Assembly: GCA_963716725.1 (NCBI GenBank)
Contig: CAVQUB010000005.1
Span: forward strand, 608,001 to 672,000
Source of the DNA: an uncultured delta proteobacterium
Lineage (GTDB): Bacteria > Myxococcota_A > Polyangia > Polyangiales > Polyangiaceae
Direction of reading: 5' to 3'
DNA: 64,000 bases
Below the pieces are notes generated by a model. It was not told where the DNA came from and did not search any database. It was given only the letters and a program-made list of their open reading frames with translations. Of the stretch, positions 49,810-62,738 are shown one piece after another. Numbering within the stretch: the stretch's first letter is position 1; each line of letters opens with the position of its first letter. The translations under genes and the position numbers were made by a program.

Positions 49810-50706
49810 TCACTTGCTCGTGCTGCCGGAGCAGATTTGGGACGAGACCATGCCGGAGGACCCGCACTTGGCCGCTTCGCATTTACCGGACGCGCACTCC
49901 TCCCACTCCTCGCAAGCGGCTCCGTCGAGCTTCGTGGTGGCGCACTTGCCCGCGGTGCAATAGGCGCCCTCGGCGCATTCATTGCTGATCTCGCAGGCGC
50001 CGCCGACTGCGACTCGGCTCACGCACTTCTCACTTGGATACTGGCAGTAGGCCGTTGCCACGCAGCCGCCCTCCGTGCACGCCTCGCCAATCGGGGCGAG
50101 AGGGGCACACTTGCCCTCGGAGCCGCAGACGAAGCCATCGTTGGTGTAGCACAGCGCGTTGCCGCCGCTCGCGCCTCCGCTGCCACCGCTGCACGAGGTC
50201 GAGCTGCCCGCCTCCGTGCACGTCCCGGAGCAGCCATCGCCCAGTTTGCCTCGCGGAGTTTGCACGCAGACGCCGTCGTTGCAGTACGCGTCGCCCCCCG
50301 GTGGCCCAATGCACTCGGCGCTCGCAGCACACTTGCCGCCATCGGGGACCGTGCCGGTGGCCACGCTCTCGCAGGGGCCCGGGGCGGGATCGTCGTCACA
50401 GTTCTTCATGGCGCCTGCGGCGTAGGCGATGCAATTGCCGCCCTTCTGTGCGTCGTACAGCACGTTGCCGGCGACCATGTTCTGGTACAAGCCTTCCAGC
50501 GACGCAGTGCACTTGACGGCGTCGTGCGTGTACCCCGCCTGCTGGCAGCACGGTCCGATGTTCGTGCAGACAGCCTTTGCCAGCTCGCCGGCGAATTTCT
50601 CCTTGGCGACGGGCGCCGCGTTCGTGCCTCCGCCCTCCGTGGACGATCCGCCACAGCCCGCAAACGCCGTGAACCCAAGCAATGCCAGCCCGATGAAGCG
50701 CTTCAT
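49810..50706 (-). CDS. Cys-rich lipoprotein, same type as 10303-11298
   Basis: Lipobox FAGC and a shared CC...G..YD...C architecture. Confidence 0.75.
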   Translation of the reverse strand: MKRFIGLALLGFTAFAGCGGSSTEGGGTNAAPVAKEKFAGELAKAVCTNIGPCCQQAGYTHDAVKCTASLEGLYQNMVAGNVLYDAQKGGNCIAYAAGAMKNCDDDPAPGPCESVATGTVPDGGKCAASAECIGPPGGDAYCNDGVCVQTPRGKLGDGCSGTCTEAGSSTSCSGGSGGASGGNALCYTNDGFVCGSEGKCAPLAPIGEACTEGGCVATAYCQYPSEKCVSRVAVGGACEISNECAEGAYCTAGKCATTKLDGAACEEWEECASGKCEAAKCGSSGMVSSQICSGSTSK

Positions 50707-50770
50707 GGGGCCTGCCTACCATGGGCATCCTCGACCTTCCAGGCGGGGTCCGAGTAGACTCGCTTTCAGC

Positions 50771-51370
50771 ATGAAGCGAGCTTGGCTGTTGGTTGCGGTC
50801 GTCGGGTGTACCGCGTGCGGCGGCGAGTCGTCGGACGACGGGTCCGGGGGAACGGGTGGCAGCGGCGCGACGGGTGGCAGCGGCGCGACGGGTGGCAGCG
50901 GCGCGACGGGTGGCAGCGGCGCGACGGGTGGCGGCGGCGCGACGGGCGGCACTGGCGCGACGGGCGGCACTGGCGCGACGGGCGGCACTGGCGCGACCGG
51001 CGGTGCTGGCGCGACGGGAGGCACTGGCGGAGCAGCTGCTGTCGACTGTGATCCGAGCACGGTGACCTGCAAGTCCATGATCCCCAATTGCGCGAAGGGC
51101 GAGGTGCCCTCGGTCAAAGACGCTTGCTGGGGGCCCTGCGTGCCGATCCTGAGCTGCGCCACGGTCAGCGACTGCTCCAAGTGCACGAAGGGCTTCTGCG
51201 CCGAGTACTCATCCTGGACTGCGCAGTATCGGTGTGTGATGCCTTCCCTCCAGTGCTCGGCGCTGGCCTGCTCGTGCCTCGCCGACTACTTCTGCGTCGC
51301 GCCCTTCGACTCGTGCTCGATCCCCGCGTCGGGTTCGGCGGCGGTTTCTTGCTCGTGTCCGTCCTGCTGA
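50771..51370 (+). CDS. Cys-rich lipoprotein with GGSGAT/GGTGAT linker
   Basis: Lipobox CTAC, repeat linker and Cys-rich C-terminus. Confidence 0.75.
   Translation: MKRAWLLVAVVGCTACGGESSDDGSGGTGGSGATGGSGATGGSGATGGSGATGGGGATGGTGATGGTGATGGTGATGGAGATGGTGGAAAVDCDPSTVTCKSMIPNCAKGEVPSVKDACWGPCVPILSCATVSDCSKCTKGFCAEYSSWTAQYRCVMPSLQCSALACSCLADYFCVAPFDSCSIPASGSAAVSCSCPSC
50852..51031 (+). repeat. In-frame 18-bp tandem repeat, ~10 copies
   Basis: acgggtggcagcggcgcg x4, then drifting to acgggcggcactggcgcg variants. Confidence 0.9.
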
Positions 51371-51431: not shown

Positions 51432-52802
51432 GTGATCGGAGTGCGGCGCTCGGCGGGAGGCTACCTGCTAGCCACGTGCGTTGCTGCGTCATCGGTGGCG
51501 CTCGCAGAGCCCGGTGACGACAGCTCCCAGGCGCCCGAGATCTCGGCGCGCACCGAGACGCACTTCCGCCTGTACCAACGCGCGCTCTTGCCGGGACCCT
51601 ACGGCGCAGTGGTCACCGAAGAGACGGCGGCGCCCATCGTCGAGTACGTGTCTGTCACTGCGCGCGACCTCGACGCACCCTGGCAGAAGCGAAGCTTGGA
51701 CGTCGAGCTCGACGCCTGGGGGAGCGCGACCTTTGGTGAGGCCGGCGCGGGCCGCCGCTTCGACGGTGAGGTGCAGCACGCCAGCGTGCGCCAGCGCATT
51801 GGACCTGCATGGTTCCGTCTCGGGCGGCAACACGTGGCGGGCGGCGCTGCGCGCTATGCACGCTTCGACGGTGTCGCCGTCGGCGGTCAGCTGCCCATTG
51901 GTTTCGGGATGGAAGGCTACGGCGGGTTCACCGTATTGCCGCGCTGGGCCGCGCGCCCCGGGTATCACCAGCTGGGTTCCGCTGCGGAATCCCTGTGGCG
52001 TGATCCCGCAGCGCTGCCCGAGCCCGATCGTGCGGAGCACTGGGTCGTCGGTGGCCGCGCCTTCTACGACTCGCGCAGCTTCGACTTCGGAGCATCGATC
52101 CACGAAGCGCGGGAGAGCGGCGGGCTCGCGCATCGGAGCCTGGCCACCGACTCACGCTTCCAGGCGTCGCAGAAGCTCTCGTTGGGCGGGGCCGCAGTGA
52201 TGGAACTCGACGCCAGGCGGGTCGCTGACGCGCGACTCTGGGGGAACTTCGCACCGCTGTCCGCCCTCGAGCTCGAACTCGAGGTACTTCACGCCGAGCC
52301 GGCGCTGTTTCTCTCGCGGCAGAGCGTGCTCAGCGCATTCTCGACGGAGGCCTATGGAGAGGTCGGCGGGAGCGCTCGCTGGAAGGTCTGGCGCGAGCTC
52401 ACGCTCACCGGCTCTGGCTTCGTCCAGATCCACGACAGTGAAGATGTGGGCCAGCGCAGCGAGATCGGAGCGCGCATTGCCCCCGGACGCGGCGACGGCA
52501 CGCTGGTCATGCTCTCGATGTCTCGGGTGAGCGCTCTGGACAACGGCTACGTGTCGATGCGCAACGCTTGGCGACAGCGCATCGATTCGAGGTTCCGCAC
52601 CACCATCGAGGCCTATCACTACCGCTACGACGAGCCCATCGCCGGCTACGAGACCTCGAGCGTCTACGCTGGGACGATCGAGTGGGTATTCACCCGTCGC
52701 GTGTCGGCGCTCTGGGGAGCGTCATTTGCGCATACTCCCTACGCAGCCGCCGACGCCCAGACTCAGCTCCGCCTACGCTACGCATCAGGAGGGCTCGAAT
52801 GA
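51432..52802 (+). CDS. Putative outer-membrane beta-barrel (porin of a porin-cytochrome module)
   Basis: Signal peptide, amphipathic strands (FRLGRQ...RFDG, QLRLRY), and coupling (ATGA) to a multiheme cytochrome gene. Confidence 0.65.
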   Translation: MIGVRRSAGGYLLATCVAASSVALAEPGDDSSQAPEISARTETHFRLYQRALLPGPYGAVVTEETAAPIVEYVSVTARDLDAPWQKRSLDVELDAWGSATFGEAGAGRRFDGEVQHASVRQRIGPAWFRLGRQHVAGGAARYARFDGVAVGGQLPIGFGMEGYGGFTVLPRWAARPGYHQLGSAAESLWRDPAALPEPDRAEHWVVGGRAFYDSRSFDFGASIHEARESGGLAHRSLATDSRFQASQKLSLGGAAVMELDARRVADARLWGNFAPLSALELELEVLHAEPALFLSRQSVLSAFSTEAYGEVGGSARWKVWRELTLTGSGFVQIHDSEDVGQRSEIGARIAPGRGDGTLVMLSMSRVSALDNGYVSMRNAWRQRIDSRFRTTIEAYHYRYDEPIAGYETSSVYAGTIEWVFTRRVSALWGASFAHTPYAAADAQTQLRLRYASGGLE

Positions 52803-53818
52803 GGGCCTCGCTGCTGCTCATTGCCTGCGCTACCGCCCTCGTGGCGGCCTGCGCCGAACCGGGGCCGGTCCGCTTTCCCCACGCGCAGCACGTCTCGGAG
52901 ATCAGCTGCGGTGGCCCCGGTCTCCCGGAGTGCCTGAGCTGCAACAGCTGCCACCGCCTCGCGACGACGCCAAAGCGGCCCTTCCCCGAGAAGCAGCTCT
53001 GCTCGCGCTGCCACCAGTCGACCGAGAAACTGTCCGTGACCCCGCCGACCGAGGTCCCGCAGCCGCTGGCCTACACCATCCGCTTCAACCACGAAAAGCA
53101 CCTGGCCATGCGCGAGGTCAAGGGACAGTGCGTGCCCTGTCACGCCGGAGCCACCGAGGCCCGATCGCCGCTATTTCCCGTGATGGAAAGCTGCTTCGAC
53201 TGTCACGAGCATCGCCAGCAGTGGGACCGGGCCGAGTGCGCGCCGTGCCACCTGCGCAAGGACGTCGAGCGGCTCCTCCCTCAGACCTTCGCGAAGCACG
53301 ATGCGGGCTTCCAACGCAATCACGGTCAAGCGGCGCGCCAGCAGCAGAAGCTCTGTCAGCAGTGCCACACGCAGCAACAGTGCGACGACTGCCACGACGT
53401 GACCCAGGACCTCTCCGTCGAGAAACGCCGCCCCGAGGCCATCGAGCGCAACTTCGTTCACCGCGGCAACTTCTTGTCTCGTCACTCCATAGAAGCGAAG
53501 TCGCAGCCCGCCACCTGCGCCCGCTGCCACACGCCCGCGAGCTGTGATGGTTGCCACTTGGAGCGTGGCGTGAGCGGCGGGGGGATCAACTCTCGCAACC
53601 CCCATCCGGGCGGCTGGATCACCGGCAGCCCCAGCGCGCACGGTCGTGACGCCCGCCGCGACATCTTGAGCTGCGCGGGCTGTCACGACCAAGGGCCGGC
53701 GACCAACTGCATCCGCTGCCACAAGGTCGGCGCCTACGGCGGCAATCCGCATCCCAAGGGATGGAAGAGCGCCCGCTCCGAGTCCTCCACCATGTGCAGG
53801 TACTGCCATGCGAATTGA
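52799..53818 (+). CDS. Multiheme cytochrome c lipoprotein, 12 CxxCH
   Basis: Lipobox VAAC, 12 CxxCH counted, and c3/c7-like FPHAQH and FNHEKH distal-His motifs. Confidence 0.9.
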   Translation: MRASLLLIACATALVAACAEPGPVRFPHAQHVSEISCGGPGLPECLSCNSCHRLATTPKRPFPEKQLCSRCHQSTEKLSVTPPTEVPQPLAYTIRFNHEKHLAMREVKGQCVPCHAGATEARSPLFPVMESCFDCHEHRQQWDRAECAPCHLRKDVERLLPQTFAKHDAGFQRNHGQAARQQQKLCQQCHTQQQCDDCHDVTQDLSVEKRRPEAIERNFVHRGNFLSRHSIEAKSQPATCARCHTPASCDGCHLERGVSGGGINSRNPHPGGWITGSPSAHGRDARRDILSCAGCHDQGPATNCIRCHKVGAYGGNPHPKGWKSARSESSTMCRYCHAN

Positions 53819-55457
53819 CGCGAAGTGGTCGCTGCTCTTCGGGGGTGTCGGCTTGCTGGGTGCCGCGCTCTTTCCGGGCTGCCAAAGCGAGCGCGGGGCG
53901 GCGGACGGTGCTCGCGGATTGGCCTGCACCTCCTGTCACGGAGACGCCTCGCGCCCCGGCAGCGTGCTCGAGCGCGCCGCGCCGCCGCGGGACCTGTCGG
54001 GCAGCTCCGATCCGCAGCGTGCGGGCGTTGGCGCGCACGAAATTCACCTGCGCGCTGGCGCGACCCACGGCCCTGTCGCCTGCGCCGAGTGTCACGTCGT
54101 GCCAAAGTTCACCGGCGACCAAGGGCACGCCGACGACGCGCTCCCCGCTGAGTTGGTATTCGGAGCGCTGGCCAAACAGGGCGGCAGGGCGCCGACTTAC
54201 GACGCGGTCAGCGGCGGTTGCAGCGATTCGTACTGTCACCGCGCCGCGGATATCAAATGGACCGCGCCGCGCCCCTCCGACGCGGCTTGCGGCAGCTGCC
54301 ACGGGCTTCCGCCCCCGGCGCCGCATCCCCAGAGCGCGAGCTGTCACAGCTGCCACGGCGACGTGATCGGTGAAGACGGCTTCGTCGACGCCGCACTGCA
54401 CGTCAACGGCAAGGTCGATCTCGGCGAGTTCGGCTGCGACGCTTGTCATGGCAGCAGCGGCGATCCCGCTCCGCCCCGAGATCTCGCTGGCAACACCAGC
54501 GTGACGTCACTCGGAGTTGGGGCCCACCGGGTTCACCTCTCGGGCGGAGCCGCAAGCCGCCCGGTGGCATGCGCGGAGTGCCATCAGGTCCCCGCCAAGC
54601 TCGACGCATCTGGTCACACTGACTCCGACCTGCCGGCGGAGCTGAGCTTCTCCGGTGTTTCCCAGGCTCAGCAACGAAAGCCCAGCTGGGATCGGCAGAC
54701 GCGCCGCTGTAGCGACTCGTGGTGTCACTCGCCATCGGCGCCCGGGCCATCGGCAGAATGGACCAGCGACGCAGGTCGCTTGCCCTGCACCGGGTGTCAC
54801 GGCAGCCCGCCGCCAGCGCCCCATGTTCAGATGGCGGCCTGCGCGCGCTGTCACGGGGACGTCGTCGGCGACGATCACGTGAGCATCAAGGACCGCAACA
54901 AGCACATCGACGGCATCGTCGATGCGGTCGTGCCGGTCACCTGCAACGGGTGCCACGGTGGCATCAACGATGCCCCGCCCAGCGACCTGGCCGGAAACTC
55001 ATCGACCACGTCACCCGGCGTCGGCGCGCACCAGGCCCACGTGGCCGGCACCGGTCGGGCTCGCGCGGTGCCTTGTGCGGAGTGTCATGTCGTGCCCGCC
55101 GCAGTGGCCGATCCAGGTCATCTCGACAGCCAGGGCTCCGCGGAGGTCCTCTTCGGGGGAGTCGCGAAGACGGCCGGCGCCGAGCCCGGCTACGTCTTCG
55201 GAAGCTGCCAGAAGAGCTATTGCCACGGAGCTAGCTTTCCCGGCGGCGCTCCCTCGGGGGGCAAACACACCTCGCCCAAGTGGACGGTCGTCGATGGTTC
55301 CCAGACCGGATGCGATGGCTGCCACGCGCTGCCGCCGCCGGCGCCGCACACCTCGTCGACCGCGTGTTGGTTCTGTCACAAGAACGTGGACTCGACCCTG
55401 AAGTTCCTGTTCCCGAACACCCACGTCGACGGCGTCGTGACCACTGTCGTGCCCTGA
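53808..55457 (+). CDS. CxxxxCH/CxxCH-type multiheme cytochrome c lipoprotein, 15 motifs
   Basis: Lipobox FPGC; 12 CxxCH plus 3 CX4CH (CSDSYCH, CSDSWCH, CQKSYCH) arranged as three five-heme repeats. Confidence 0.9.
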   Translation: MRIDAKWSLLFGGVGLLGAALFPGCQSERGAADGARGLACTSCHGDASRPGSVLERAAPPRDLSGSSDPQRAGVGAHEIHLRAGATHGPVACAECHVVPKFTGDQGHADDALPAELVFGALAKQGGRAPTYDAVSGGCSDSYCHRAADIKWTAPRPSDAACGSCHGLPPPAPHPQSASCHSCHGDVIGEDGFVDAALHVNGKVDLGEFGCDACHGSSGDPAPPRDLAGNTSVTSLGVGAHRVHLSGGAASRPVACAECHQVPAKLDASGHTDSDLPAELSFSGVSQAQQRKPSWDRQTRRCSDSWCHSPSAPGPSAEWTSDAGRLPCTGCHGSPPPAPHVQMAACARCHGDVVGDDHVSIKDRNKHIDGIVDAVVPVTCNGCHGGINDAPPSDLAGNSSTTSPGVGAHQAHVAGTGRARAVPCAECHVVPAAVADPGHLDSQGSAEVLFGGVAKTAGAEPGYVFGSCQKSYCHGASFPGGAPSGGKHTSPKWTVVDGSQTGCDGCHALPPPAPHTSSTACWFCHKNVDSTLKFLFPNTHVDGVVTTVVP

Positions 55458-55467
55458 CCGAGGCGGG

Positions 55468-56301
55468 CTATTTCACGACCACTGCGTCTTCGAGCAGAGC
55501 GTCGTAGCGGTATCCGGCGCCGAGATCTTTGTCGAGCACCAGGGTCCCTTCGAAGGTGACCGTCTGGTCGCGCGCGACCTCCTCTGCGGTGGTCACCGTC
55601 AAGTCGTGGTCCTTCGTCTGCTCGCTGCCCGTGCCGTCCTGCAGGTGCAGGAAGTTCTTGCCCAAGATACCGCTGGTCACCTTGACCACTCGGCCGCGCA
55701 CGCGGATCTTCTTGGCGGAGAGGGCCTGCTTTTCAGCGAAGACCTCGGCGATGGTGCGCGCGTTCGGTCCCGTCGCCTTGCCGACCGGGCCGACGGCGCT
55801 CGGCCCGGCGCTCGCGGCAGACGGAGGGTGCCCGGGGGGCAATGCGCCGGCGGTTGGCGCGTGTCCGGGGGGCAATGCGCCGGCGGTTGGCGCGTGTCCG
55901 GGGGGCAATGCGCCGGCGCTCTCGCCGGTTGCCAACGAGCCAAAGTGGATGCTGTCGAAGCTTCGCTTCAGCGTCTTGCTCTCGAAGTTGTTCATGACGG
56001 TCTCGGAGCGCACGCTCACCCGCTCGCCCACCTTCACGCCGGCCGTCGCGACCGCGGTCCACGTCCCTTCCGAACCCGCTTCACCGACCCGGATGTAGGT
56101 GTATCCCGGGACGTCGTGGACCTCGAGGGCGGCCCCTTCGACCAGTCCGGCTGCCGGCGACTCCGCCGTGGGGGACGGCAGGGGAGGCGCGCTCGATGCC
56201 ATTGGCTCGGCCCGCGGACGCTCGCGGCTGAAGCTGCCGCCAAACATGGCCACGACGCCGGCCGCAACGATGACCCCACCGAGCAAGTAACCCATCTTCA
56301 T
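55468..56301 (-). CDS. NrfJ-like double OB-fold exported protein with His-repeat linker
   Basis: GYTYIRV...W.A...VGE.V...MNNFESKTLKRSFDSIHF, then a second domain VRGRVVKV..GILGKNFLHLQDG...KDLGAGY.Y. NrfJ similarity is from recall. Confidence 0.6.
   Translation of the reverse strand: MKMGYLLGGVIVAAGVVAMFGGSFSRERPRAEPMASSAPPLPSPTAESPAAGLVEGAALEVHDVPGYTYIRVGEAGSEGTWTAVATAGVKVGERVSVRSETVMNNFESKTLKRSFDSIHFGSLATGESAGALPPGHAPTAGALPPGHAPTAGALPPGHPPSAASAGPSAVGPVGKATGPNARTIAEVFAEKQALSAKKIRVRGRVVKVTSGILGKNFLHLQDGTGSEQTKDHDLTVTTAEEVARDQTVTFEGTLVLDKDLGAGYRYDALLEDAVVVK
55828..55918 (-). repeat. In-frame 33-bp tandem repeat, ~3 copies (AGALPPGHAPT)
   Basis: gtgtccggggggcaatgcgccggcggttggcgc-type units at 55828, 55861 and 55894. 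Confidence 0.9.
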
Positions 56302-56317
56302 TTGGAACGGACCTTTC

Positions 56318-58072
56318 TCAGTCTCCGGCTTTGAACAGGTGGCAGCCGCTGCAGCGATTCGCTTCGGGATGATGCTTCTGTAGGTTGGTGTGACACGCAG
56401 CGCACGCGGCGCGTTCGGGTCGATCGTCCCCGTGGCCGGTATGGCACTTGATGCATTCCCGGTGGTTGGGATCGAGGTGCAGCCCGGCGAGCGTATTGGT
56501 CTGGTGGCAAGCGGTGCAACTTGGAGGCTTGGCGACCCCGCCGGGGCCGTGGGCGCGGTGGCACTTGGCGCAGCCGCCATCGACCCGGGCGTGAGGAGTC
56601 TTTTCTGCGGCCTGGTGGCAGCGAGCGCAACCCCCCGGAGTCGTCTGGCCCGTGTGTGGTTCATGGCACGTCGAGCACTGCTTGTGTCCGCCGGGGGCGC
56701 TCTGGTGTTCCTTGGCGTGGCAGCTGTCGCAGCGCTTCTGTACGCCCGCGCTGTGGGGATCGTGGCAGCGTTGACAGCCGGCGTGCCCCCGATTGACCTG
56801 AGCCGCTTGCCGCTCGTGGCAGGTCTTGCAGGTCTGCACTGCGAAGGGTTTGTGCGGAAGGCCAGCGTGGCACTCGCCACACTTGCGGTGGCCTTTGCTC
56901 TGGGCCGCCAGGGTCACCTCTTGTCCGTGGCAGCGCGCGCAAGTGGCCGTGTTGTCCTTGGCCAACCCAAACTGGTGAGGTGTGTGGCAGCCCACGCAGG
57001 GCACTGTCTTGGCGTGGAATCCCTTGTCGCCAGCCGCGTCCGTGTGGCAGCTCGAGCAGGGTCGCGGTCGGGCAGCGGCGGCGTTGCCGGGGTGCGGATC
57101 GTGGCACGAGGTGCAGGCCGACGCCTTGCCCTTTGCTCGAGGGTGGTCCGTCTTGCCCGCGCCGTGACAAGCGACACACGCGCCGCTGGGATCGGCCTTC
57201 ACGTCATGCGGGCGATGACACGAGTTGCATTGAGCATGGGCCGCGATGCGCCCGCCGCCCAAGACCGGTCGGTCTTCGTGACACGAACGGCAGCTCACCA
57301 CGTTTTCGGGACGGAAGTCGTGGGGCCGATGACACCCGGTGCATTTCTCGTGTCCTTCGACGAAGAGCGCGGTCGCCGGCACGATGGGTTTCTGCTCGGC
57401 GTGGCAACCGGCGCAGCTGAGGTTGGCGGCCTTGCCCGGCGCGTGCTGCGAGGCGTGGCAGGTGGTGCATACCTGCTCCGGCGACTTGCCTTCGGTGGCG
57501 TGGGTGGCGTTCACACCGCTGTGGCAGGTCGGGCAGCTCGTCTGTTCGACGGGCGGCTTTGCGTGGGGCTGATGACAGGTCTGGCACGCCTGAGAGCGGT
57601 GCACGACCACCGCCGGAACGTCGCCTTCGGGGTGCTCGCTGTGGCAGCGCTGACAATCCCAGGCCCCCGGGGCCGCCTTCGGGTCGAGCTCGGGCTTCTG
57701 ACTGAAGGCGTGGCAGTCCAGGCAGCTCGCGCCCGCGGTCGGGCCATGGAGCTTGCGGGCGTTCTCGGCGCCGTGCACGATCTCGGCTTCGCCTTGGTGG
57801 CACTCCGTGCATCGCTCCTGAGGGACCGGGCCGAGCACACCCTGATCGAGCTCGTGGCACTTGCTGCACTCGATCTTGCGCTTGCCGACGTGGGTCTCGT
57901 GGCTGCGCACCTTCCGAGCGTCGGCCCATTCGACCGGGATCCTCACGCCCGCGTTGGTGGCTGGGCCTTCATCGCCGCAGGCTGCGAGCAGCAGACCGAC
58001 GATCGTCGCCAAGACGGCGACGAGCCCGCGACGTGCAAGGTCTGCGCGTGCCTTGGGGCGATTCGAGGTCAT
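56318..58072 (-). CDS. High-molecular-weight multiheme cytochrome c lipoprotein, 27 CxxCH
   Basis: Lipobox LAAC, 27 CxxCH counted, recurring CxxCHxPH units. Confidence 0.9.
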   Translation of the reverse strand: MTSNRPKARADLARRGLVAVLATIVGLLLAACGDEGPATNAGVRIPVEWADARKVRSHETHVGKRKIECSKCHELDQGVLGPVPQERCTECHQGEAEIVHGAENARKLHGPTAGASCLDCHAFSQKPELDPKAAPGAWDCQRCHSEHPEGDVPAVVVHRSQACQTCHQPHAKPPVEQTSCPTCHSGVNATHATEGKSPEQVCTTCHASQHAPGKAANLSCAGCHAEQKPIVPATALFVEGHEKCTGCHRPHDFRPENVVSCRSCHEDRPVLGGGRIAAHAQCNSCHRPHDVKADPSGACVACHGAGKTDHPRAKGKASACTSCHDPHPGNAAAARPRPCSSCHTDAAGDKGFHAKTVPCVGCHTPHQFGLAKDNTATCARCHGQEVTLAAQSKGHRKCGECHAGLPHKPFAVQTCKTCHERQAAQVNRGHAGCQRCHDPHSAGVQKRCDSCHAKEHQSAPGGHKQCSTCHEPHTGQTTPGGCARCHQAAEKTPHARVDGGCAKCHRAHGPGGVAKPPSCTACHQTNTLAGLHLDPNHRECIKCHTGHGDDRPERAACAACHTNLQKHHPEANRCSGCHLFKAGD

Positions 58073-58128
58073 GACGCGCACGATAGATTGCCTCACGCGA
58101 GCCGAGATGACAAAGAGGACGTGGCACC

Positions 58129-58854
58129 GTGCTGTCACACGTCACCCCCGCCGGTTGGTTCTGTTTGGTGGCCGCAGCTGCGTCCGCCGCCATCGTCATC
58201 TGGTACTTGGTCAAAGAGCCACCGCTCTTTCTCAGGACCAAGCTCACGCTCTTGTTCGGAGTCGGCGCGCTGCCGGCGGCGGTGGCGGTGAGCTCCACCA
58301 CCATCGGGATGCAAGAGACGACCGAGCGCAGGTTTTGCGGCTCGTGCCACGTGATGCAGAGACACACCTGGAACTCGGAGCAGCCGGAGAGCATGTCGCT
58401 GGCCGCGCGGCATGCGCGAAATCCGTTTTTCGGTGATCGCAACTGCTACGTCTGCCACGCCGACTACGGGATGCTCGGTTATCCGTTGACCAAGATGAAC
58501 GGCATGAAGCACGTCTGGCACTACTACTTCGGCGGATACAAGGACAAGTCGCTCGAAGCAGCCGTTGACGAGATCGACCTCTACAAACCCTACGACAATT
58601 TGAACTGCCGGCAGTGCCACTCCGGCACGCTCGTACACTTCAAGAGCATCGCCGATCATCAATCGCTCGAGACCGAGCTCGCGAACAACCGAGTGAGCTG
58701 CACCAGCGGTGGCTGTCACGGCTTCGCCCATCCCTTCAGCAAGTTCGGCAAGAAGGCGCCCAAGCCGAACGACGTGAAGGCAGCCCACTCGGCCGCGAAC
58801 AGCGCGGCGCCGGTCGGCTCCGCGGCGCCGGCTGCGTCCGGAGGCGCTCCGTGA
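58129..58854 (+). CDS. NapC/NirT-family membrane-anchored quinol dehydrogenase cytochrome c
   Basis: Two N-terminal TMs, TTERRFCGSCHVM, CYVCHADYG...K..G..H, CRQCH and atypical CTSGGCH. Confidence 0.85.
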   Translation: MLSHVTPAGWFCLVAAAASAAIVIWYLVKEPPLFLRTKLTLLFGVGALPAAVAVSSTTIGMQETTERRFCGSCHVMQRHTWNSEQPESMSLAARHARNPFFGDRNCYVCHADYGMLGYPLTKMNGMKHVWHYYFGGYKDKSLEAAVDEIDLYKPYDNLNCRQCHSGTLVHFKSIADHQSLETELANNRVSCTSGGCHGFAHPFSKFGKKAPKPNDVKAAHSAANSAAPVGSAAPAASGGAP

Positions 58855-59130
58855 GCATCCGGTCCACGGTTGCCCGGCTGCCGCAGCGCTTGCTGCTCCG
58901 CACAGCCTGTTACCTCGTGCTCGCAGCGCTGTTGGTGATGTGCGCTTCGATTCTTGGTTCCCAAGCCAGTCGCGGTCATCGCGGCCATGAGCGTCGGGCA
59001 CGTCTTGGGCGCCCTCGGCGTCGCGTGTTTTGGACTCGGGGTATTGGTCGAGATGGCAACCCGGCCCGGGGCGCCGACCTCCGTCCGGCCGCCGACCGTG
59101 ACCGCGGACCCGGACGAAGACCACGACTGA
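58851..59130 (+). pseudogene. Small two-TM protein coupled to the NapC-like gene, with one extra base near 58955
   Basis: VSIRS...LVLAALLVMCASIL continues after a +1 shift as VPKPVAVIAAMSVGHVLGALGVACFGLGVLVE...DHD*. May be a sequencing error. Confidence 0.55.
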
Positions 59131-59181
59131 GAGCCGGCTGCCGCCCCTCGCCGAAGCGACGCCGGTCCCCATCGCCACCCG

Positions 59182-61263
59182 CTACTGGGGCATCGGGTGG
59201 CAGAGCGCGCAGGCATCGGTGTAGGGGATCGGCATCATGTCGGACGCCTTGGTGGCGATGGCGGCCTTCTTAGGCACGTCGAAGACGTGGGACGAAATGT
59301 CGCCGTGGTAGTAGGTGGTGCCGCCGGCGGTGAGCCCAACCCTGCCGGCGCCGGACTTCGCGGTCTTCGGCATGTGGCACTGGACGCAGGTCGTATTCGG
59401 CTTCGCCACGTCGGGCACGCCGTAGAGTTTGTAGTGAGCGCGCATGCGGTCGGTGAAGGTCGCCCCCGCGGGGAAGGTCGCGCCGTGGCAGCTCATGCAG
59501 AAACCCTCGCCGGTGGCGGTGTTGTCTTCCGCGCCGCGCAGTTGGTGCTTCTGTTGAGTCTTGCCGTGGGAGTCGTGACACGACGAGCAGGTGATCAGGT
59601 GCGTGTCGTTTCGGTACTTGCCCGAGCGCAGGAAGTCAGTGACCTGTTGGTGGTGCTTCTTGGAGTGTTTGCCGTCACCCTTGACGGTGTCCCACATGCC
59701 GTCGTCGAACTTCGACACATGATTCGCCAAGAAGTCGGCGCGTGAGATGCCCGCCACCGGCATTCGGCCGCTGGCGTTCATGGGAGTCTCGGTGGCTCCG
59801 CCGCCAACACCGAGAGGCCGGCTGTGGCACTGCGTGCAGATTGCGACCTCGCGCTCGGGCGTGAGCAGGTAGGGGCTCACGATGGCGCGGCCTTGGCCGG
59901 CCCACTCCCAGTGCTCCGAGCCCGGGCCGTGGCAGGTCTCACAGCCCATGTTCAGCTGCTCGAGCTTGCCGTCCCCGTCGAAGTCCATCTCGCCCTTGTC
60001 GTCGGGCACGCCGTGGGCAGTCCAGCCGCTCGTGGCGTCGCCGGTCAGCTTGAAGCCCGTCATGTGACAGCCGGCGCAGTTGTTGTCGAAGGACTTGGTC
60101 TTGGTCGGCTCTTTGAGGGCCTTGCCCGCCTCGTCGTACCAGTTCTGCGCGTTGTAGTGCTGCCAGACCCAGCGCGACGAAGGCGAAGTCGCCTCGGCCG
60201 TGAGTCCCTCGAAGTTGTACTGGAGCGGGATGATGTACCAGCTCGCGCCGATCTTGGTCATGTAGCGCTGCTTGTAGAGCCCGCCGCCGTAGCTGATTCG
60301 CGCTTCGTAGGTCTTGGTCGCCGCGGTCCCCGCCACGTTGGTCAGGTCGACGTAGTACTTGCCTGCGCTGGAGTAGAGCTTCATCGTGAAGCTCACGCCA
60401 GTGCCCGGGTTCGTCTCCGATACCTTCCAGTCCGGGGAGGTCGCGTTGCCGTTGTAAGCGTAGACGAAGAGCATCGTCCCAGAGGCGCTGAACTTGGTGT
60501 CGATGGGCTTGGTCCACTCGGGGAAGCGGCTGTAGTCCTGCAGACCGCCCGTCTGTCCCATCACCTTCAGTCCCAGCGCGTGCAAGGTCTGCTTCTGGTG
60601 GTTCATGCCGTGACAGCTCAGGCACACGCTGGTGCCCACGTACTCGGCCTTGGCGCTGGGCTTGGTCGAGAGGTCGATGTTCCACTGCTTGCCGACGAGC
60701 GCGGTCGATGCCGACGCAGTGCGGCACATGCTGCCGCCGGGCAAGTGCGCGTCGTCCGTCTTGGCGGGCACGACCGTGACGAAGTAGCTGCCGGGCGGGA
60801 CGGTGGCGACGCGGTAGACGCCGTCGGGATCAGTGACGGCCTGCGGGTACGACGCGCCCTTGGCCGCGATGGGATCCTCGAGGGGTTCGTCGATGGCGCT
60901 CGTCTTCTCGACGGCGATGTCTTTCGGTTCGAGCAGCGCCGTGGGGATGTCGGCGCTCGGCACGAGGTACACCGTCGCGCCGACCACGGGCTTGTCGGCG
61001 GTGTCTTTCACGACGCCAACGATTCCGGTGGGCTCGAGCGCCAAGTACCCTTGCCGGGGCGGGCCCGGGGGCCCCGCCTCGCCCGCGGGTCCGGGCTCAC
61101 CGACGGAGCCGTCGGCGCCGGGCTCACCAGGCAATCCCGTCGCGCCGTCGGCGCCGTTCTTGCCCGGCTTGCCATCGGCTCCGTCGTCCCCGCCGCAACC
61201 TGAAGCAAGCGCGAACGCGCTCACTACTACCCAACCGAGATACGAAGTGCGGCGAATGGACAT
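59182..61263 (-). CDS. Octaheme cytochrome c lipoprotein with collagen-like and beta-sandwich N-terminal domains
   Basis: Lipobox ASGC, G-X-Y repeats, GVVKD...VVGATV.L carboxypeptidase-regulatory-like domain, 8 CxxCH including GCETCHGPGSEH. Confidence 0.88.
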   Translation of the reverse strand: MSIRRTSYLGWVVVSAFALASGCGGDDGADGKPGKNGADGATGLPGEPGADGSVGEPGPAGEAGPPGPPRQGYLALEPTGIVGVVKDTADKPVVGATVYLVPSADIPTALLEPKDIAVEKTSAIDEPLEDPIAAKGASYPQAVTDPDGVYRVATVPPGSYFVTVVPAKTDDAHLPGGSMCRTASASTALVGKQWNIDLSTKPSAKAEYVGTSVCLSCHGMNHQKQTLHALGLKVMGQTGGLQDYSRFPEWTKPIDTKFSASGTMLFVYAYNGNATSPDWKVSETNPGTGVSFTMKLYSSAGKYYVDLTNVAGTAATKTYEARISYGGGLYKQRYMTKIGASWYIIPLQYNFEGLTAEATSPSSRWVWQHYNAQNWYDEAGKALKEPTKTKSFDNNCAGCHMTGFKLTGDATSGWTAHGVPDDKGEMDFDGDGKLEQLNMGCETCHGPGSEHWEWAGQGRAIVSPYLLTPEREVAICTQCHSRPLGVGGGATETPMNASGRMPVAGISRADFLANHVSKFDDGMWDTVKGDGKHSKKHHQQVTDFLRSGKYRNDTHLITCSSCHDSHGKTQQKHQLRGAEDNTATGEGFCMSCHGATFPAGATFTDRMRAHYKLYGVPDVAKPNTTCVQCHMPKTAKSGAGRVGLTAGGTTYYHGDISSHVFDVPKKAAIATKASDMMPIPYTDACALCHPMPQ

Positions 61264-61430
61264 GCGACCTCCTGAGCTCGAGCGCGTTCGAATCCGCACA
61301 GCGGACCACAAAGCGCGCACCGCGGCCCAATAGCGCGATTGTTCAGTGCTCCGTCGCGCGAAAATTGCAGCCGGCCGGGCGTCGCGCTGGCTTTGCGGCC
61401 GGCGTGGTACGCTCGGCGGCGAGGGAAATC

Positions 61431-62738
61431 ATGCAATCTCGGCTTCTTGGAGCGGCGCTGGCGTTTTCGTCCCTGGCTTGGGGCCTCGCGGGAGGGTGCT
61501 CGGCATCGAGCGGCGGCGGCGGCGGCGGCGGTGCTGGCGCCGGCGGGTCTGGCGGCACTACCGGCGGAACTGGCGGCGGAGGCATCGGCAATACCGGCGG
61601 GTTCATCGACAGCGGGCCCAGCGATGGCCCGGCCGGAGACGCCTGCGCCGAGCTACAAGTCGAGGCCAAGCAGGCCCCGCTGGCGATGCTCGTGGTGCTC
61701 GACAAGAGCACCAGCATGGCGCAGGCGGGCAAGTGGACCGCCGCGCAGCTCGCGATCGTCCAGGCCATCGACACCGCGGGCTTCGACAACCTCGCGCTGG
61801 GCATGCTGCTCTATCCCGCGGGCGACGTGCCCGGACCGGCGTGCGTCTTCGGCCTCTCGGTTTCGTGCGGGGTGTCGGCGCTGGCGCAGGTTCCCATCGC
61901 AGACACCGGCTCTGCCAAGAGCAACGCACCGGGAGTCCGCCAACAGATCTACAACTGGCTCGCGAGCAACCAACCCAATGGAACCGCGACGCCGGGCTAC
62001 GACGCGCTCAAAGCCGCGATCGCGGGCGTTGGCGCGTATTCGATGCCGGCCGGTGCGCTCCGCGTCGTGCTCTTGATCTCCGACGGCGGCTTCACCTGTA
62101 CGTCGCTTTCCAACCCGAAGCGTCCTGCCTATTTGGACTCGATCGGTTGCGAAGACTGGGAGCACCCGGACAACGTGGTGAGCATGCTCGACGCCGCCTA
62201 CAAGGATCCGACCAAGCCCACGCGCACGCTGGTGATCGGCGTGCCGGGGTCCGACACCAAGCCCACCGATTCCGAGGCCCCGCCCTATTACATGCGGCGA
62301 GCGCTCTCGGCCTTCGCCAAGGCGGGCGCACCGGACCTGGTCCCCGCCGGCTGCGATGGCACCTATCAGCAGAGCCAGGGCGATCCCGCCCTCGAATGCC
62401 ACTACGATCTCACCAAGGGGACCTTCAACGCCCAGGCCCTCGCCGACTCCATCGTCAAGATCCGTGGAGCGGTGCTCGGCTGCGTCTACCAACTTCCCGA
62501 TCCGGGCGCCGGCAAGACTCTCGACAAGAAGAAGGTCAACGTAGTGGTCACCCTCGATGGCAAGACCACGACGGTGCCGCAACGGAGCGATCCCAACGAC
62601 CACTGCCTGGGGTCGCCCTGCTGGGATTACGACGCGACCGGCCAGGTCGTGCTGATCGGTGCCGTGTGCTCGGACGTGCAGAAGTCCTCCAACGCCAAGG
62701 TGGAGATCCAGGTCGGCTGCGCGACCATCGTAAAGTGA
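61431..62738 (+). CDS. VWA-domain lipoprotein
   Basis: Lipobox AGGC, Gly linker, MIDAS DKSTSM...T...LISDG. Confidence 0.85.
   Translation: MQSRLLGAALAFSSLAWGLAGGCSASSGGGGGGGAGAGGSGGTTGGTGGGGIGNTGGFIDSGPSDGPAGDACAELQVEAKQAPLAMLVVLDKSTSMAQAGKWTAAQLAIVQAIDTAGFDNLALGMLLYPAGDVPGPACVFGLSVSCGVSALAQVPIADTGSAKSNAPGVRQQIYNWLASNQPNGTATPGYDALKAAIAGVGAYSMPAGALRVVLLISDGGFTCTSLSNPKRPAYLDSIGCEDWEHPDNVVSMLDAAYKDPTKPTRTLVIGVPGSDTKPTDSEAPPYYMRRALSAFAKAGAPDLVPAGCDGTYQQSQGDPALECHYDLTKGTFNAQALADSIVKIRGAVLGCVYQLPDPGAGKTLDKKKVNVVVTLDGKTTTVPQRSDPNDHCLGSPCWDYDATGQVVLIGAVCSDVQKSSNAKVEIQVGCATIVK

What the first reader, a model, noticed from the sequence alone, without database searches (positions are those of the whole stretch)
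51432..61263. Complete-looking trans-envelope electron conduit (66 heme motifs) in a Polyangiales-like myxobacterium
Seen: a beta-barrel coupled to 12- and 15-heme lipoproteins, a 27-heme lipoprotein, a divergent NapC/NirT tetraheme, an 8-heme lipoprotein and an OB-fold accessory protein. Established: quinol dehydrogenase, periplasmic multiheme carriers and porin-cytochrome complexes make up extracellular electron transfer chains in Geobacter, Shewanella and Anaeromyxobacter. Inference: this organism, whose other genes resemble those of usually aerobic predatory myxobacteria, may respire or exchange electrons with metals, humics or cells through a non-Mtr architecture. narK, hemerythrin and PPi-PFK fit a low-oxygen lifestyle.
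Basis: partly seen in the sequence, partly recalled or inferred. Interest (0 to 1): 0.75.

Follow-up and report, generated by a model that had tools for sequence, protein, structure and literature searches.

The report
Porin-cytochrome electron conduit in uncultured Polyangiaceae
A soil-type myxobacterium from a family usually thought of as oxygen-breathing predators carries a conserved gene set that looks built to wire electrons from its inner membrane through a pore to the cell surface, a known kind of machine in an unexpected host and in an unusual, fully tethered form.

Summary
Window 51432-61263 encodes five c-type cytochromes with 66 heme-binding motifs: 62 CxxCH and 4 CxxxxCH. No other reading frame in the 64 kb window has more than one such motif.

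- **A:** folds as a 22-24-strand outer-membrane beta-barrel.
- **B (12 hemes) and C (15 hemes):** lipoproteins translationally coupled to A.
- **E:** a 27-heme lipoprotein.
- **F:** a NapC/NirT-family tetraheme, closest solved relative NrfH.
- **D:** a membrane-anchored tandem OB-fold protein.
- **G:** an 8-heme lipoprotein on a collagen-like stalk.

Across 80 related loci, all from uncultured MAGs and most labelled Polyangiaceae, B follows A in 73 of 73 informative loci and C follows B in 60 of 61. E lies within 10 kb in 35 of 38 long loci. Ten loci place a bona fide OmcA/MtrC-family decaheme close to the A-B-C genes.

A is a distant homologue of an Anaeromyxobacter barrel (26% identity, E 7e-32). 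A, B and C match published porin-cytochrome (Pcc) criteria, not Mtr.

Verdict: a new variant of the Pcc kind, most likely for extracellular electron transfer.

The parts
51432..52802 (+). A: outer-membrane beta-barrel, 456 aa, signal peptide ending ALA/EPG, about 22-24 strands. It is the proposed sheath of the conduit.
   Evidence: Model pLDDT 78.9, all-beta. Foldseek hits are outer-membrane barrels. No Pfam or NCBIfam family. 631 representatives at E<=1e-3. 26% identical, E 7e-32, to Anaeromyxobacter diazotrophicus AMYX_06140.
52799..53818 (+). B: 12-heme lipoprotein, 339 aa. Its ATG overlaps A's stop (ATGA). It is the proposed insert of the barrel.
   Evidence: 12 CxxCH, 24 His, lipobox LVAAC. 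ATGA overlap. Directly downstream of A in 73 of 73 loci with 600 nt or more after A. The Cys and His of 11 of the 12 motifs, plus the two Cys of the twelfth (C132, C135), are listed as invariant across 41 sequences. Best solved relative by profile is 3ov0_A at E 3.5e-9; MtrA is absent at E<=1.
53808..55457 (+). C: 15-heme lipoprotein, 549 aa, made of three repeats of 4 CxxCH + 1 CxxxxCH. It overlaps B's end by 11 nt. It is the proposed outer-face cytochrome.
   Evidence: Motifs and lipobox LFPGC. Three stretches match TIGR01904 at 95.4 bits, cutoff 27. It follows B in 60 of 61 loci. Repeat number varies from 2 to 7 among homologues.
55468..56301 (-). D: membrane-anchored tandem OB-fold protein, about 277 aa, with LPPGHP motifs in the linker. 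It lies 16 nt downstream of E.
   Evidence: Model with two five-stranded beta domains at pLDDT about 95. OB-fold matches. The minus strand is better conserved than the rival plus-strand ORF: 66% against 50% identity in L001. Hits covering 50% or more in 34 of 80 loci. Directly upstream of A in 18 of 37 loci with a D hit.
56318..58072 (-). E: 27-heme lipoprotein, about 584 aa from the ATG at 58072. It is the proposed periplasm-spanning heme wire.
   Evidence: 27 CxxCH, 59 His, 1 Met, lipobox LLAAC. Pfam c3/c7/paired-CXXCH families. 27 motifs in 31 of 53 homologues and 32-34 in 16. The 33-34-heme forms shown carry an N-terminal TM helix instead of a lipobox.
58129..58854 (+). F: NapC/NirT-family tetraheme, 241 aa, with two N-terminal hydrophobic helices. 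It is the proposed quinol dehydrogenase and is divergent from E.
   Evidence: PF03264 at 55.7 bits, cutoff 24.1. NrfH 2j7a_C at E 2.6e-6. 3 CxxCH + 1 CxxxxCH in 32 of 34 homologues. Divergent and adjacent to E in 32 of 35 loci.
58851..59130 (+). c7-like small two-helix membrane protein gene. It starts 4 nt before F's stop and is frameshifted near 58950-58957 in this window.
   Evidence: tblastn hit at 58960-59070. Frames read. Intact in L001 and L002. The family is present in 16 loci, as a rule just after F.
59182..61263 (-). G: 8-heme lipoprotein, 693 aa, with a collagen-like stretch and a CarboxypepD_reg-like domain. It is a candidate surface cytochrome and a peripheral member of the cluster.
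   Evidence: 8 CxxCH, lipobox LASGC. Pfam Collagen and CarboxypepD_reg matches below cutoff; Paired_CXXCH and Cytochrome_C7 above cutoff. Hits covering 50% or more in only 3 of 80 loci. It shares only its N-terminal lipoprotein and collagen-like part with families c6, c9 and c20.

Best explanation
This is a porin-cytochrome (Pcc-type) trans-envelope electron conduit, most likely used to pass respiratory electrons to acceptors outside the cell such as Fe(III)/Mn(IV) minerals or humic substances.

Proposed path:
1. F, a NapC/NirT-family tetraheme anchored in the inner membrane, perhaps with the small two-helix protein encoded after it, oxidises quinol.
2. E, a membrane-tethered array of 27 closely spaced bis-His hemes, carries electrons across the periplasm without a diffusible shuttle.
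3. B, a 12-heme rod, sits in the lumen of the 22-24-strand barrel A and crosses the outer membrane.
4. C, three pentaheme modules, receives the electrons on the outer face. Lipid-anchored, stalked cytochromes may act as terminal reductases: G here, and OmcA/MtrC-family proteins in relatives.
5. D, a membrane-anchored tandem OB-fold protein, is a conserved accessory of unknown role, possibly a scaffold or assembly factor.

Shown here: the gene content, the heme motifs, the lipoboxes, the barrel and OB folds, the family assignments and the conservation of gene order.

Inferred: every protein location, every contact, the order of the path and the direction of electron flow.
For: Heme motifs are confined to these genes.

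A is a beta-barrel.

A, B and C overlap start to stop, by ATGA and by 11 nt. Their order is kept: B after A in 73 of 73 loci, and C after B in 60 of 61. The script counted 57; L001, L002 and L033 were missed only because the hits overlap by 7 nt.

E is within 10 kb in 35 of 38 loci of 20 kb or more. F is divergent and adjacent to E in 32 of 35 loci.

Related loci add known extracellular-electron-transfer parts (for the gene maps):
- Family c9 passes the curated cutoff of TIGR03507, OmcA/MtrC family, at 451.5 bits against 209.3. It occurs in 10 loci, directly upstream of D or A in 8 of them, downstream of C in 2.
- Family c8 fuses a multiheme domain (9-11 CxxCH) to a cytochrome b561 / formate dehydrogenase gamma domain.
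- Family c10 is a 6-7-heme NapC/NirT-family protein.

The cluster fits the published Pcc ranges: porin of 18-22 strands, periplasmic cytochrome of 5-14 typical hemes, and atypical CX3-15CH motifs only in the outer-membrane cytochromes. The Anaeromyxobacter periplasmic partner has 12 hemes in 338-344 aa (PMC4245776, passages read). B has 12 typical motifs in 339 aa; C has 3 CX4CH.

A is homologous to a barrel of cultured Anaeromyxobacter diazotrophicus.

B's profile matches the 318-aa multiheme chain 3ov0_A at E 3.5e-9. F matches the quinol dehydrogenase NrfH.

Acetate kinase and phosphotransacetylase genes lie next to the cluster in 4 loci: L010, L012, L013 and L016.
Against: No contact between any two of these proteins was tested.

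B carries a conserved lipobox, unlike the soluble MtrA and OmaB. How a lipid-anchored rod would enter a barrel is not explained.

A has no sequence match to MtrB/PioB, and MtrB is not among the Foldseek ranks listed, up to rank 50. TM-scores to any solved barrel are only 0.24-0.50.

I could not align A, B or C with Geobacter OmbB, OmaB or OmcB, nor with the Anaeromyxobacter Pcc proteins named in PMC4245776.

No cytochrome c maturation genes are in the window.

The small gene after F is frameshifted here.

The idea that the 33-34-heme E forms are F-E fusions, which would have tied F to E, was rejected.

All 80 loci come from metagenome-assembled genomes, so no physiology exists. Cultured Polyangiaceae are known as aerobes (recalled).
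Confidence: 0.65

Rival explanations
1. The hardware is the same but runs inward. The conduit takes electrons from outside (Fe(II), reduced minerals, reduced humics or a partner cell) and feeds them to the quinone pool, or to oxygen or nitrate reduction, as the MtoAB/PioAB-type systems do.
For: NapC/NirT-family proteins and multiheme wires are in principle reversible (established knowledge of CymA and Mto systems, recalled). The host family is known as aerobic (recalled). A NarK-like transporter is in the window, at 276 bits and below its cutoff. PMC4245776 notes that two-gene Mtr-type clusters without an outer cytochrome serve Fe(II) oxidation (passage).
Against: This cluster does have outer-face-type cytochromes (C and G), and relatives have OmcA/MtrC-family proteins, which are known as terminal reductases. 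CbcL-like and long NapC/NirT-family genes in relatives resemble the Geobacter reductive route. ack and pta neighbours in 4 loci suggest a fermentative, reductant-disposing metabolism. None of this is decisive.
Confidence: 0.15
2. It is not a trans-membrane wire. A is an ordinary substrate porin, and the cytochromes form a periplasmic, membrane-tethered reductase chain for a soluble compound that enters through A, for example a sulfur, selenium or tellurium oxyanion or a chelated metal.
For: A's fold matches include substrate channels such as AlgE, chitoporin and Occ porins. UniRef names the Anaeromyxobacter homologue 'Alginate export domain'. All four large cytochromes are lipoproteins whose membrane is unknown. 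A cytochrome b in related loci has as its best NCBIfam hit the selenite/tellurite-operon ExtP, at 125.8 bits and below the cutoff of 290. G and c20 hit a UshA-like (seleno)protein model weakly.
Against: No catalytic, non-heme reductase is encoded in the conserved core. The strict A-B coupling with overlapping codons in 73 of 73 loci is what porin-cytochrome pairs show (PMC4245776). The best structural matches by TM-score are the 24-strand ushers, which pass folded protein. An OmcA/MtrC-family protein lies close to the A-B-C genes in 10 loci.
Confidence: 0.12
3. The cluster is decaying or not expressed in this organism and has no present function.
For: The small gene after F is frameshifted in this window but intact in L001 and L002. 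GC3 of A, B, C and E (0.76-0.79) is lower than that of most genes in the window (0.83-0.92).
Against: All seven large reading frames are open. All heme motifs and lipoboxes are intact, and the sequences are conserved against relatives at 66-83% identity. A single-base indel in a metagenome-type assembly is as likely to be an error.
Confidence: 0.05

Closest known systems
Geobacter Pcc complexes (OmaB/OmbB/OmcB and paralogues), as surveyed in PMC4245776
   Same: Both have the triad of a porin-like barrel, a multiheme cytochrome with only typical motifs, and a lipoprotein cytochrome with typical plus atypical (CX4CH) motifs, encoded side by side. The barrel is smaller than MtrB. C contains the TIGR01904 CxxxxCH/CxxCH domain, whose model name refers to Geobacter sulfurreducens.
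   Different: The gene order is barrel-B-C. B has 12 hemes, not 8, and a conserved lipobox. C is built of 2-7 pentaheme repeats. A has about 22-24 strands against 18-22. Direct sequence comparison with OmbB, OmaB and OmcB could not be made.
Anaeromyxobacter two-gene pcc cluster (Group IV of PMC4245776; periplasmic partner Adeh_3392)
   Same: Both are in the phylum Myxococcota. The partner cytochrome has 12 hemes in 338-344 aa, against B's 12 in 339 aa. A is homologous to a barrel family of Anaeromyxobacteraceae, including cultured A. diazotrophicus (26% identity over 398 columns, E 7e-32).
   Different: According to the paper, Anaeromyxobacter lacks the outer-membrane cytochrome gene. Here C is almost always present (60 of 61 loci), together with E, F and D. 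It is not shown that AMYX_06140 is the orthologue of the published Pcc porin. Identity is low: 25-29% between the two branches.
Shewanella MtrCAB with CymA
   Same: The logic is the same: an inner-membrane NapC/NirT-family quinol dehydrogenase, a heme rod inside a barrel, and a lipoprotein cytochrome outside. Relatives of this cluster even carry an OmcA/MtrC-family decaheme.
   Different: A, B and C are not members of the MtrB/PioB, DmsE/MtrA or OmcA/MtrC families. There are no soluble periplasmic shuttles; a tethered 27-heme protein takes their place. F has two N-terminal helices and an atypical fourth heme motif.
Geobacter poly-c7 'nanowire' cytochromes (GSU1996, 12 hemes, PDB 3ov0; GSU2210, 27 hemes). 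The identities and heme numbers are recalled, not taken from a call.
   Same: B's family profile matches 3ov0_A at E 3.5e-9. E has the same recalled heme count, 27, and c3/c7-type Pfam domains.
   Different: E has one Met in total, so His-Met ligation is unlikely. It did not reach E 0.01 against TIGR04257 nanowire_3heme. E is a lipoprotein paired with a quinol dehydrogenase gene.
Geobacter ExtABCD-type clusters (recalled)
   Same: One barrel comes with two lipoprotein cytochromes plus a separate periplasmic multiheme protein.
   Different: Not compared by sequence here, and the heme numbers differ.

Membership tests
Pcc porin-cytochrome clusters (criteria of PMC4245776) | [quoted passage not shown] | tested here: met
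   The model of A is a beta-barrel with 24 DSSP strand elements, read as 22-24 strands. This is at or just above the published range.
Pcc porin-cytochrome clusters (criteria of PMC4245776) | An adjacent gene for a multiheme c-type cytochrome with 5-14 typical CxxCH motifs and no atypical ones | tested here: met
   B has 12 CxxCH and no CX3-4CH. It is adjacent to A in 73 of 73 loci. It differs in having a lipobox.
Pcc porin-cytochrome clusters (criteria of PMC4245776) | [quoted passage not shown] | tested here: met
   C has a lipobox, 12 CxxCH and 3 CxxxxCH. It is present in 60 of 61 loci.
Pcc porin-cytochrome clusters (criteria of PMC4245776) | BLAST similarity (E<0.01) to OmbB/OmaB/OmcB or to accepted members | not testable with these tools
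   The reference sequences could not be fetched. Indirect evidence only: A against an Anaeromyxobacter diazotrophicus barrel gives E 7e-32.
Pcc porin-cytochrome clusters (criteria of PMC4245776) | The three proteins form a complex that moves electrons across a membrane | not testable with these tools
A wet-lab test is needed.
MtrCAB / MtoAB / PioAB | A barrel of the MtrB/PioB family | tested here: not met
   No Pfam or NCBIfam family matched A at E<=0.01, and none matched two close homologues at E<=1. MtrB is not among the Foldseek ranks listed, up to rank 50.
MtrCAB / MtoAB / PioAB | A decaheme of the DmsE/MtrA family as the insert | tested here: not met
   B has 12 motifs and no NCBIfam hit at E<=0.001. 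MtrA is not among the PDB sequence hits of the B profile at E<=1.
MtrCAB / MtoAB / PioAB | An OmcA/MtrC-family decaheme on the surface | tested here: not met
   Neither C nor G reaches TIGR03507. The family is present next to the cluster in 10 related loci at 451.5 bits against a cutoff of 209.3, but not in this window.
NapC/NirT (CymA, NrfH) quinol dehydrogenases | The NapC/NirT cytochrome domain with four heme sites and an N-terminal membrane anchor | tested here: met
   PF03264 at 55.7 bits, cutoff 24.1. 3 CxxCH + 1 CxxxxCH. NrfH at E 2.6e-6. It differs in having two hydrophobic helices. All NCBIfam equivalog and subfamily cutoffs are missed by a wide margin, so it is a divergent member.
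OB-fold proteins | A five-stranded closed beta-barrel domain | tested here: met
   D has two such domains at pLDDT about 95. Foldseek gives probability 1.00 to OB domains of AsnRS, LysRS and AspRS, to CST, and to 3f1z. There is no sequence family.

The most novel reading that the evidence does not exclude
Uncultured Polyangiaceae carry a fully hard-wired envelope circuit in which every large cytochrome is tethered. A lipid- or helix-anchored protein of 27 to 34 hemes bridges the whole periplasm in place of diffusible carriers. A lipid-anchored 12-heme rod threads a barrel of a family with no Pfam or NCBIfam model. An outer cytochrome is lengthened or shortened in pentaheme modules, from 2 to 7. 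Terminal cytochromes stand on collagen-like stalks. A tandem OB-fold protein with conserved LPPGHP motifs serves as a dedicated assembly or heme-handling factor. If so, a large clade of 'aerobic predators' would be facultative mineral- or partner-respiring electroactive bacteria in soils, groundwater and sludge.
Probability: 0.25. Interest if true: 0.8.

Novelty: new variant of a known kind. Interest (0 to 1): 0.6.

Why it matters
Extracellular electron transfer is documented in Myxococcota for Anaeromyxobacter. Polyangiaceae are treated as aerobic predators and polymer degraders (recalled).

Here the barrel family has 631 representatives at 50% clustering. At least 108 stretches of GTDB species-representative genomes encode it, and all 80 loci kept are from MAGs. 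If the cluster works as proposed, a widespread uncultured soil and groundwater clade could respire minerals or humics, or exchange electrons with other cells. That would change how its ecology, and iron and carbon budgets, are read from metagenomes.

My searches found no paper describing this. 'porin-cytochrome' with 'Polyangiaceae' gave 0 papers. 'Polyangiaceae' with 'extracellular electron transfer' gave 3 papers, none on this by title or abstract. PMC13055281 mentions FeGenie MtrA/MtrB calls in one Polyangiaceae MAG in passing (passages). PMC11475568 has no word starting 'Myxococc' in its main text; its supplements were not read and may list such clusters.

Mechanistically, the tethered 27-heme protein, the modular outer cytochrome and the lipid-anchored insert offer a natural test of whether periplasmic shuttles can be dispensed with.

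Tried and rejected
- **Complex prediction of A with B.** The association of the barrel with the cytochromes stays unchecked.
- **Names for the second-tier barrels.** The look-up could not be made. I used two homology searches instead.
- **Are the 33-34-heme E forms fusions of F and E?** Rejected. None of 5 tested E forms has a PF03264 match. An HMM built from 34 F homologues matched only the F family, plus 5 chance-level hits.
- **The plus-strand ORF 55529-56098 as a rival to D.** It has higher GC3 (0.87). Rejected, because the minus-strand product is better conserved (66% against 50% in L001; 37 against 28 loci) and folds confidently.
- **PDB sequence searches with the A profile, C, E and G.** No hits.
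- **Atlas look-ups of D and of G's heme domain.** Only generic or unnamed clusters came back.
- **G as a core part.** Rejected. Hits covering 50% or more occur in only 3 of 80 loci. Its likeness to families c6, c9 and c20 is limited to the signal and collagen-like N-terminus.
- **H (61365-62738) and the Gly/Cys-rich gene at 50429-51370 as members.** Rejected. They are syntenic only in L001 and L002.

Full report
**What is there.** The window is about 67% G+C, so I called genes by third-position G+C and by conservation. Between 51432 and 61263 lie seven large genes and one small one.

On the plus strand:
- A, 51432-52802.
- B, 52799-53818. Its ATG overlaps A's stop as ATGA.
- C, 53808-55457. 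It overlaps B's end by 11 nt.

Convergent with C, on the minus strand:
- E, 58072-56318.
- D, 56301-55468, which starts 16 nt after E ends.

Divergent from E, on the plus strand:
- F, 58129-58854.
- A small gene starting at GTG 58851.

Then G, 61263-59182, on the minus strand.

The heme-binding motifs are B 12, C 12+3, E 27, F 3+1 and G 8. That is 62 CxxCH and 4 CxxxxCH, 66 in all. Apart from one motif in the frame 60837-62738, no other frame of 80 or more codons in the 64 kb window has any. B, C, E and G each have a signal peptide ending in a lipobox cysteine. A has an ordinary signal peptide.

**The barrel.** A has no Pfam or NCBIfam family, and its family profile has no sequence match in the PDB. 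A model built from 35 homologues has mean pLDDT 78.9 and pTM 0.69. It is all-beta, with 24 strand elements, which I read as 22-24 strands. The listed Foldseek matches to the PDB are outer-membrane or S-layer beta-barrel proteins. The highest TM-scores (0.40-0.50) are to the 24-strand FimD/PapC ushers, which pass folded proteins; AlgE and porins follow. MtrB is not among the ranks listed, up to rank 50.

**The other parts.**
- **C** has three stretches matching TIGR01904, the CxxxxCH/CxxCH domain, at 95.4 bits against a cutoff of 27.
- **F** is a NapC/NirT-family protein: PF03264 at 55.7 bits against a cutoff of 24.1. Its closest solved relative is the quinol dehydrogenase NrfH at E 2.6e-6. It misses every NCBIfam subfamily cutoff. 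It has two conserved N-terminal hydrophobic helices and a conserved CxxxxCH fourth site, in 32 of 34 homologues. 'Divergent' is a fair description.
- **E** has 27 motifs at 15-29-residue spacing, 59 His and one Met. It matches only generic c3, c7 and paired-CXXCH families.
- **B**'s family profile finds the 318-aa multiheme chain 3ov0_A at E 3.5e-9 and does not find MtrA at E<=1. That 3ov0 is the extended dodecaheme GSU1996 is my recollection.
- **D** has no family, and the atlas gave only unnamed or automatically named Myxococcota clusters. Its model has a membrane helix, then two five-stranded beta domains at pLDDT about 95, joined by a disordered linker. Foldseek matches OB folds. The linker carries conserved LPPGHP motifs.
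- **G** has a collagen-like stretch, a CarboxypepD_reg-like segment (both below the Pfam cutoff), and an 8-heme domain.

**Conservation.** A has 380 homologues at E<=0.001 in the word-indexed search. Every source name shown is 'hypothetical protein', and the organism labels are Polyangiaceae, Myxococcales, Sorangiineae and one Pseudomonadota MAG. The exhaustive profile search gave 631 representatives at E<=0.001 and 216 at E<=1e-30.

A scan of species-representative genomes found 108 stretches encoding a relative. I kept the best 80. All are MAG records, most labelled Polyangiaceae, and none is an isolate. The 28 stretches not kept were not seen.

Counts over these loci:

| Relation | Count | Denominator |
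|---|---|---|
| B follows A on the same strand | 73 | 73 loci with 600 nt or more after A |
| C follows B | 60 | 61 loci with 900 nt or more after B |
| E hit covering 50% or more | 35 | 38 loci of 20 kb or more |
| F hit covering 50% or more | 22 | 38 loci of 20 kb or more |
| D hit covering 50% or more | 22 | 38 loci of 20 kb or more |
| F divergent and adjacent to E | 32 | 35 loci with F |
| D directly upstream of A | 18 | 37 loci with a D hit |

For C, the script's strict rule gave 57. L001, L002 and L033 have C overlapping B by 7 nt, and only L029 lacks C.

The 12 motifs of B are conserved: the Cys and His of 11 motifs, and the two Cys of the twelfth, are listed as invariant across 41 sequences.

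C is modular. Its homologues carry these (CxxCH, CxxxxCH) counts: (8,2) in 7, (12,3) in 40, (16,4) in 2, and single cases of (20,5), (22,5), (24,6) and (30,7). The remaining 8 of 61 are partial or odd.

E has 27 motifs in 31 of 53 homologues and 32-34 in 16. Among the N-termini printed, the 27-heme forms have a lipobox. Most of the 33-34-heme forms instead have an N-terminal transmembrane helix, followed at once by the first heme motif. An alpha-helical anchor means the inner membrane, so I infer that E starts at the inner membrane in both forms.

**Neighbours in relatives.** Two layouts recur:
- **The window's type:** A-B-C, then E and F divergent, then a small two-helix protein (family c7), then a 4-5-heme collagen-like lipoprotein (family c6).
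- **The second type:** D-A-B-C with a 33-34-heme E and several added genes.

The added genes in the second type are:
- a protein that passes the curated cutoff of the OmcA/MtrC decaheme family, TIGR03507, at 451.5 bits against 209.3, with a collagen-like N-terminus;
- a multiheme domain (9-11 CxxCH) fused to a b561 / formate dehydrogenase gamma-type cytochrome b, the architecture I recall for Geobacter CbcL;
- a 6-7-heme, 559-aa NapC/NirT-family protein, the architecture I recall for ImcH;
- a cytochrome b;
- an NrfC/NrfD-like pair.

Acetate kinase and phosphotransacetylase sit beside the cluster in L010, L012, L013 and L016. None of these extra genes is in the window, apart from the c7-like gene.

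**Relation to known systems.** In the passages of PMC4245776 that I read, Pcc clusters are defined as follows:
- a porin-like protein of 18-22 strands;
- a periplasmic cytochrome of 5-14 typical hemes;
- usually an outer-membrane cytochrome, which often has atypical CX3-15CH motifs never seen in the periplasmic partner.

The same paper reports that Anaeromyxobacter has a two-gene form whose cytochrome has 12 hemes in 338-344 aa. A, B (12 typical motifs, 339 aa) and C (3 CX4CH) fit this description.

The exhaustive search also showed a second tier of barrels of 410-450 aa, 25-29% identical to A over nearly their full length. Homology searches from two of them found Anaeromyxobacteraceae MAG proteins and AMYX_06140 of cultured Anaeromyxobacter diazotrophicus. 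That protein aligns with A at 26% identity over 398 columns, E 7e-32.

So A belongs to a myxobacterial barrel superfamily shared with a genus known for metal reduction. I could not show that AMYX_06140 is the published Pcc porin, because the published sequences were out of reach.

The Mtr family tests were not met.

**How it most likely works.** The proposed path is:
1. Quinol is oxidised by F in the inner membrane.
2. Electrons run along E across the periplasm.
3. They enter B, which occupies the lumen of A.
4. They leave through C, and perhaps through stalked cytochromes such as G.

The gene content, folds, motifs and linkage are shown. The locations, contacts, order and direction are inferred.

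The reductive direction is favoured by the OmcA/MtrC-family, CbcL-like and ImcH-like neighbours and by ack/pta. Inward flow cannot be excluded. A purely periplasmic chain behind an ordinary porin is the main structural rival.

**What stayed unchecked.**
- Cytochrome c maturation genes: none lie in the window, and the rest of the genome was not available.
- Supplements of PMC11475568 and PMC4245776 were not read.
- There is no physiology for any carrier.

**Verdict.** This is a new variant of the porin-cytochrome kind, conserved across many uncultured Polyangiaceae, with unusual tethering and modularity.

Noticed in passing
window 58851-59130 (+): A small two-helix membrane protein gene lies directly after F; its GTG overlaps F's stop by 4 nt. 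It is split by a frameshift near 58950-58957, with the first helix in one frame and the second in another. It is intact in L001 and L002, and the family follows F in 16 related loci. The frameshift is either an assembly error or a recent lesion.
   Followed up: yes
window 59182-61263 (-); L042:15249-17582, L045:7948-9360, L070:932-3727: Several lipoprotein cytochromes of these clusters begin with a collagen-like Gly-X-Y stretch right after the lipobox. They are G, the 4-5-heme family c6, the OmcA/MtrC-family c9, and the 9-heme c20. This suggests heme domains held away from the membrane on a stalk.
   Followed up: partly
window 55468-56301 (-), linker residues about 123-179 of D: The disordered linker between the two OB domains of D carries two or three 'LPPGHP'-type motifs that are conserved across most of the 25 homologues aligned. 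Their role is unknown; metal or heme contact is a guess.
   Followed up: partly
window 61365-62738 (+): A 457-aa lipoprotein-like gene (LAGGC) has a Gly-rich linker and a 'VVLDKSTSM' stretch that recalls a von Willebrand A metal site (recalled motif). It has no Pfam or NCBIfam family and is syntenic only in L001 and L002.
   Followed up: partly
window 50429-51370 (+): This gene has GGSGAT/GGTGAT repeats, a Cys-rich C-terminal part and an internal lipobox-like VVGC. It has no family and is found upstream of A only in L001 and L002, with a weak hit in L023.
   Followed up: no
L010, L012, L013, L016 (about 1-6 kb upstream of A): Acetate kinase and phosphotransacetylase genes lie between D and A in four related loci. 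This hints at a link between the conduit and acetate-forming, reductant-disposing metabolism.
   Followed up: partly
L075:5123-6166 and family c17: A cytochrome b found in five related loci beside the CbcL-like gene and the 32-34-heme E has as its best NCBIfam hit the 'selenite/tellurite reduction operon b-type cytochrome ExtP', at 125.8 bits and below the cutoff of 290.
   Followed up: no
An MFS protein scores best as NarK family (276 bits, cutoff 311.7). There is a hemerythrin-domain protein. A phosphofructokinase scores best as PPi-type (234 bits, cutoff 550). All are best hits only, so the low-oxygen reading is plausible but weak.
   Followed up: partly
window 51432-58138 against the rest of the window: A, B, C and E have lower third-position G+C (0.76-0.79) than most other genes of the window (0.83-0.92). 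F and G are typical, at 0.83 and 0.87. This could reflect amino-acid composition or a different history.
   Followed up: no
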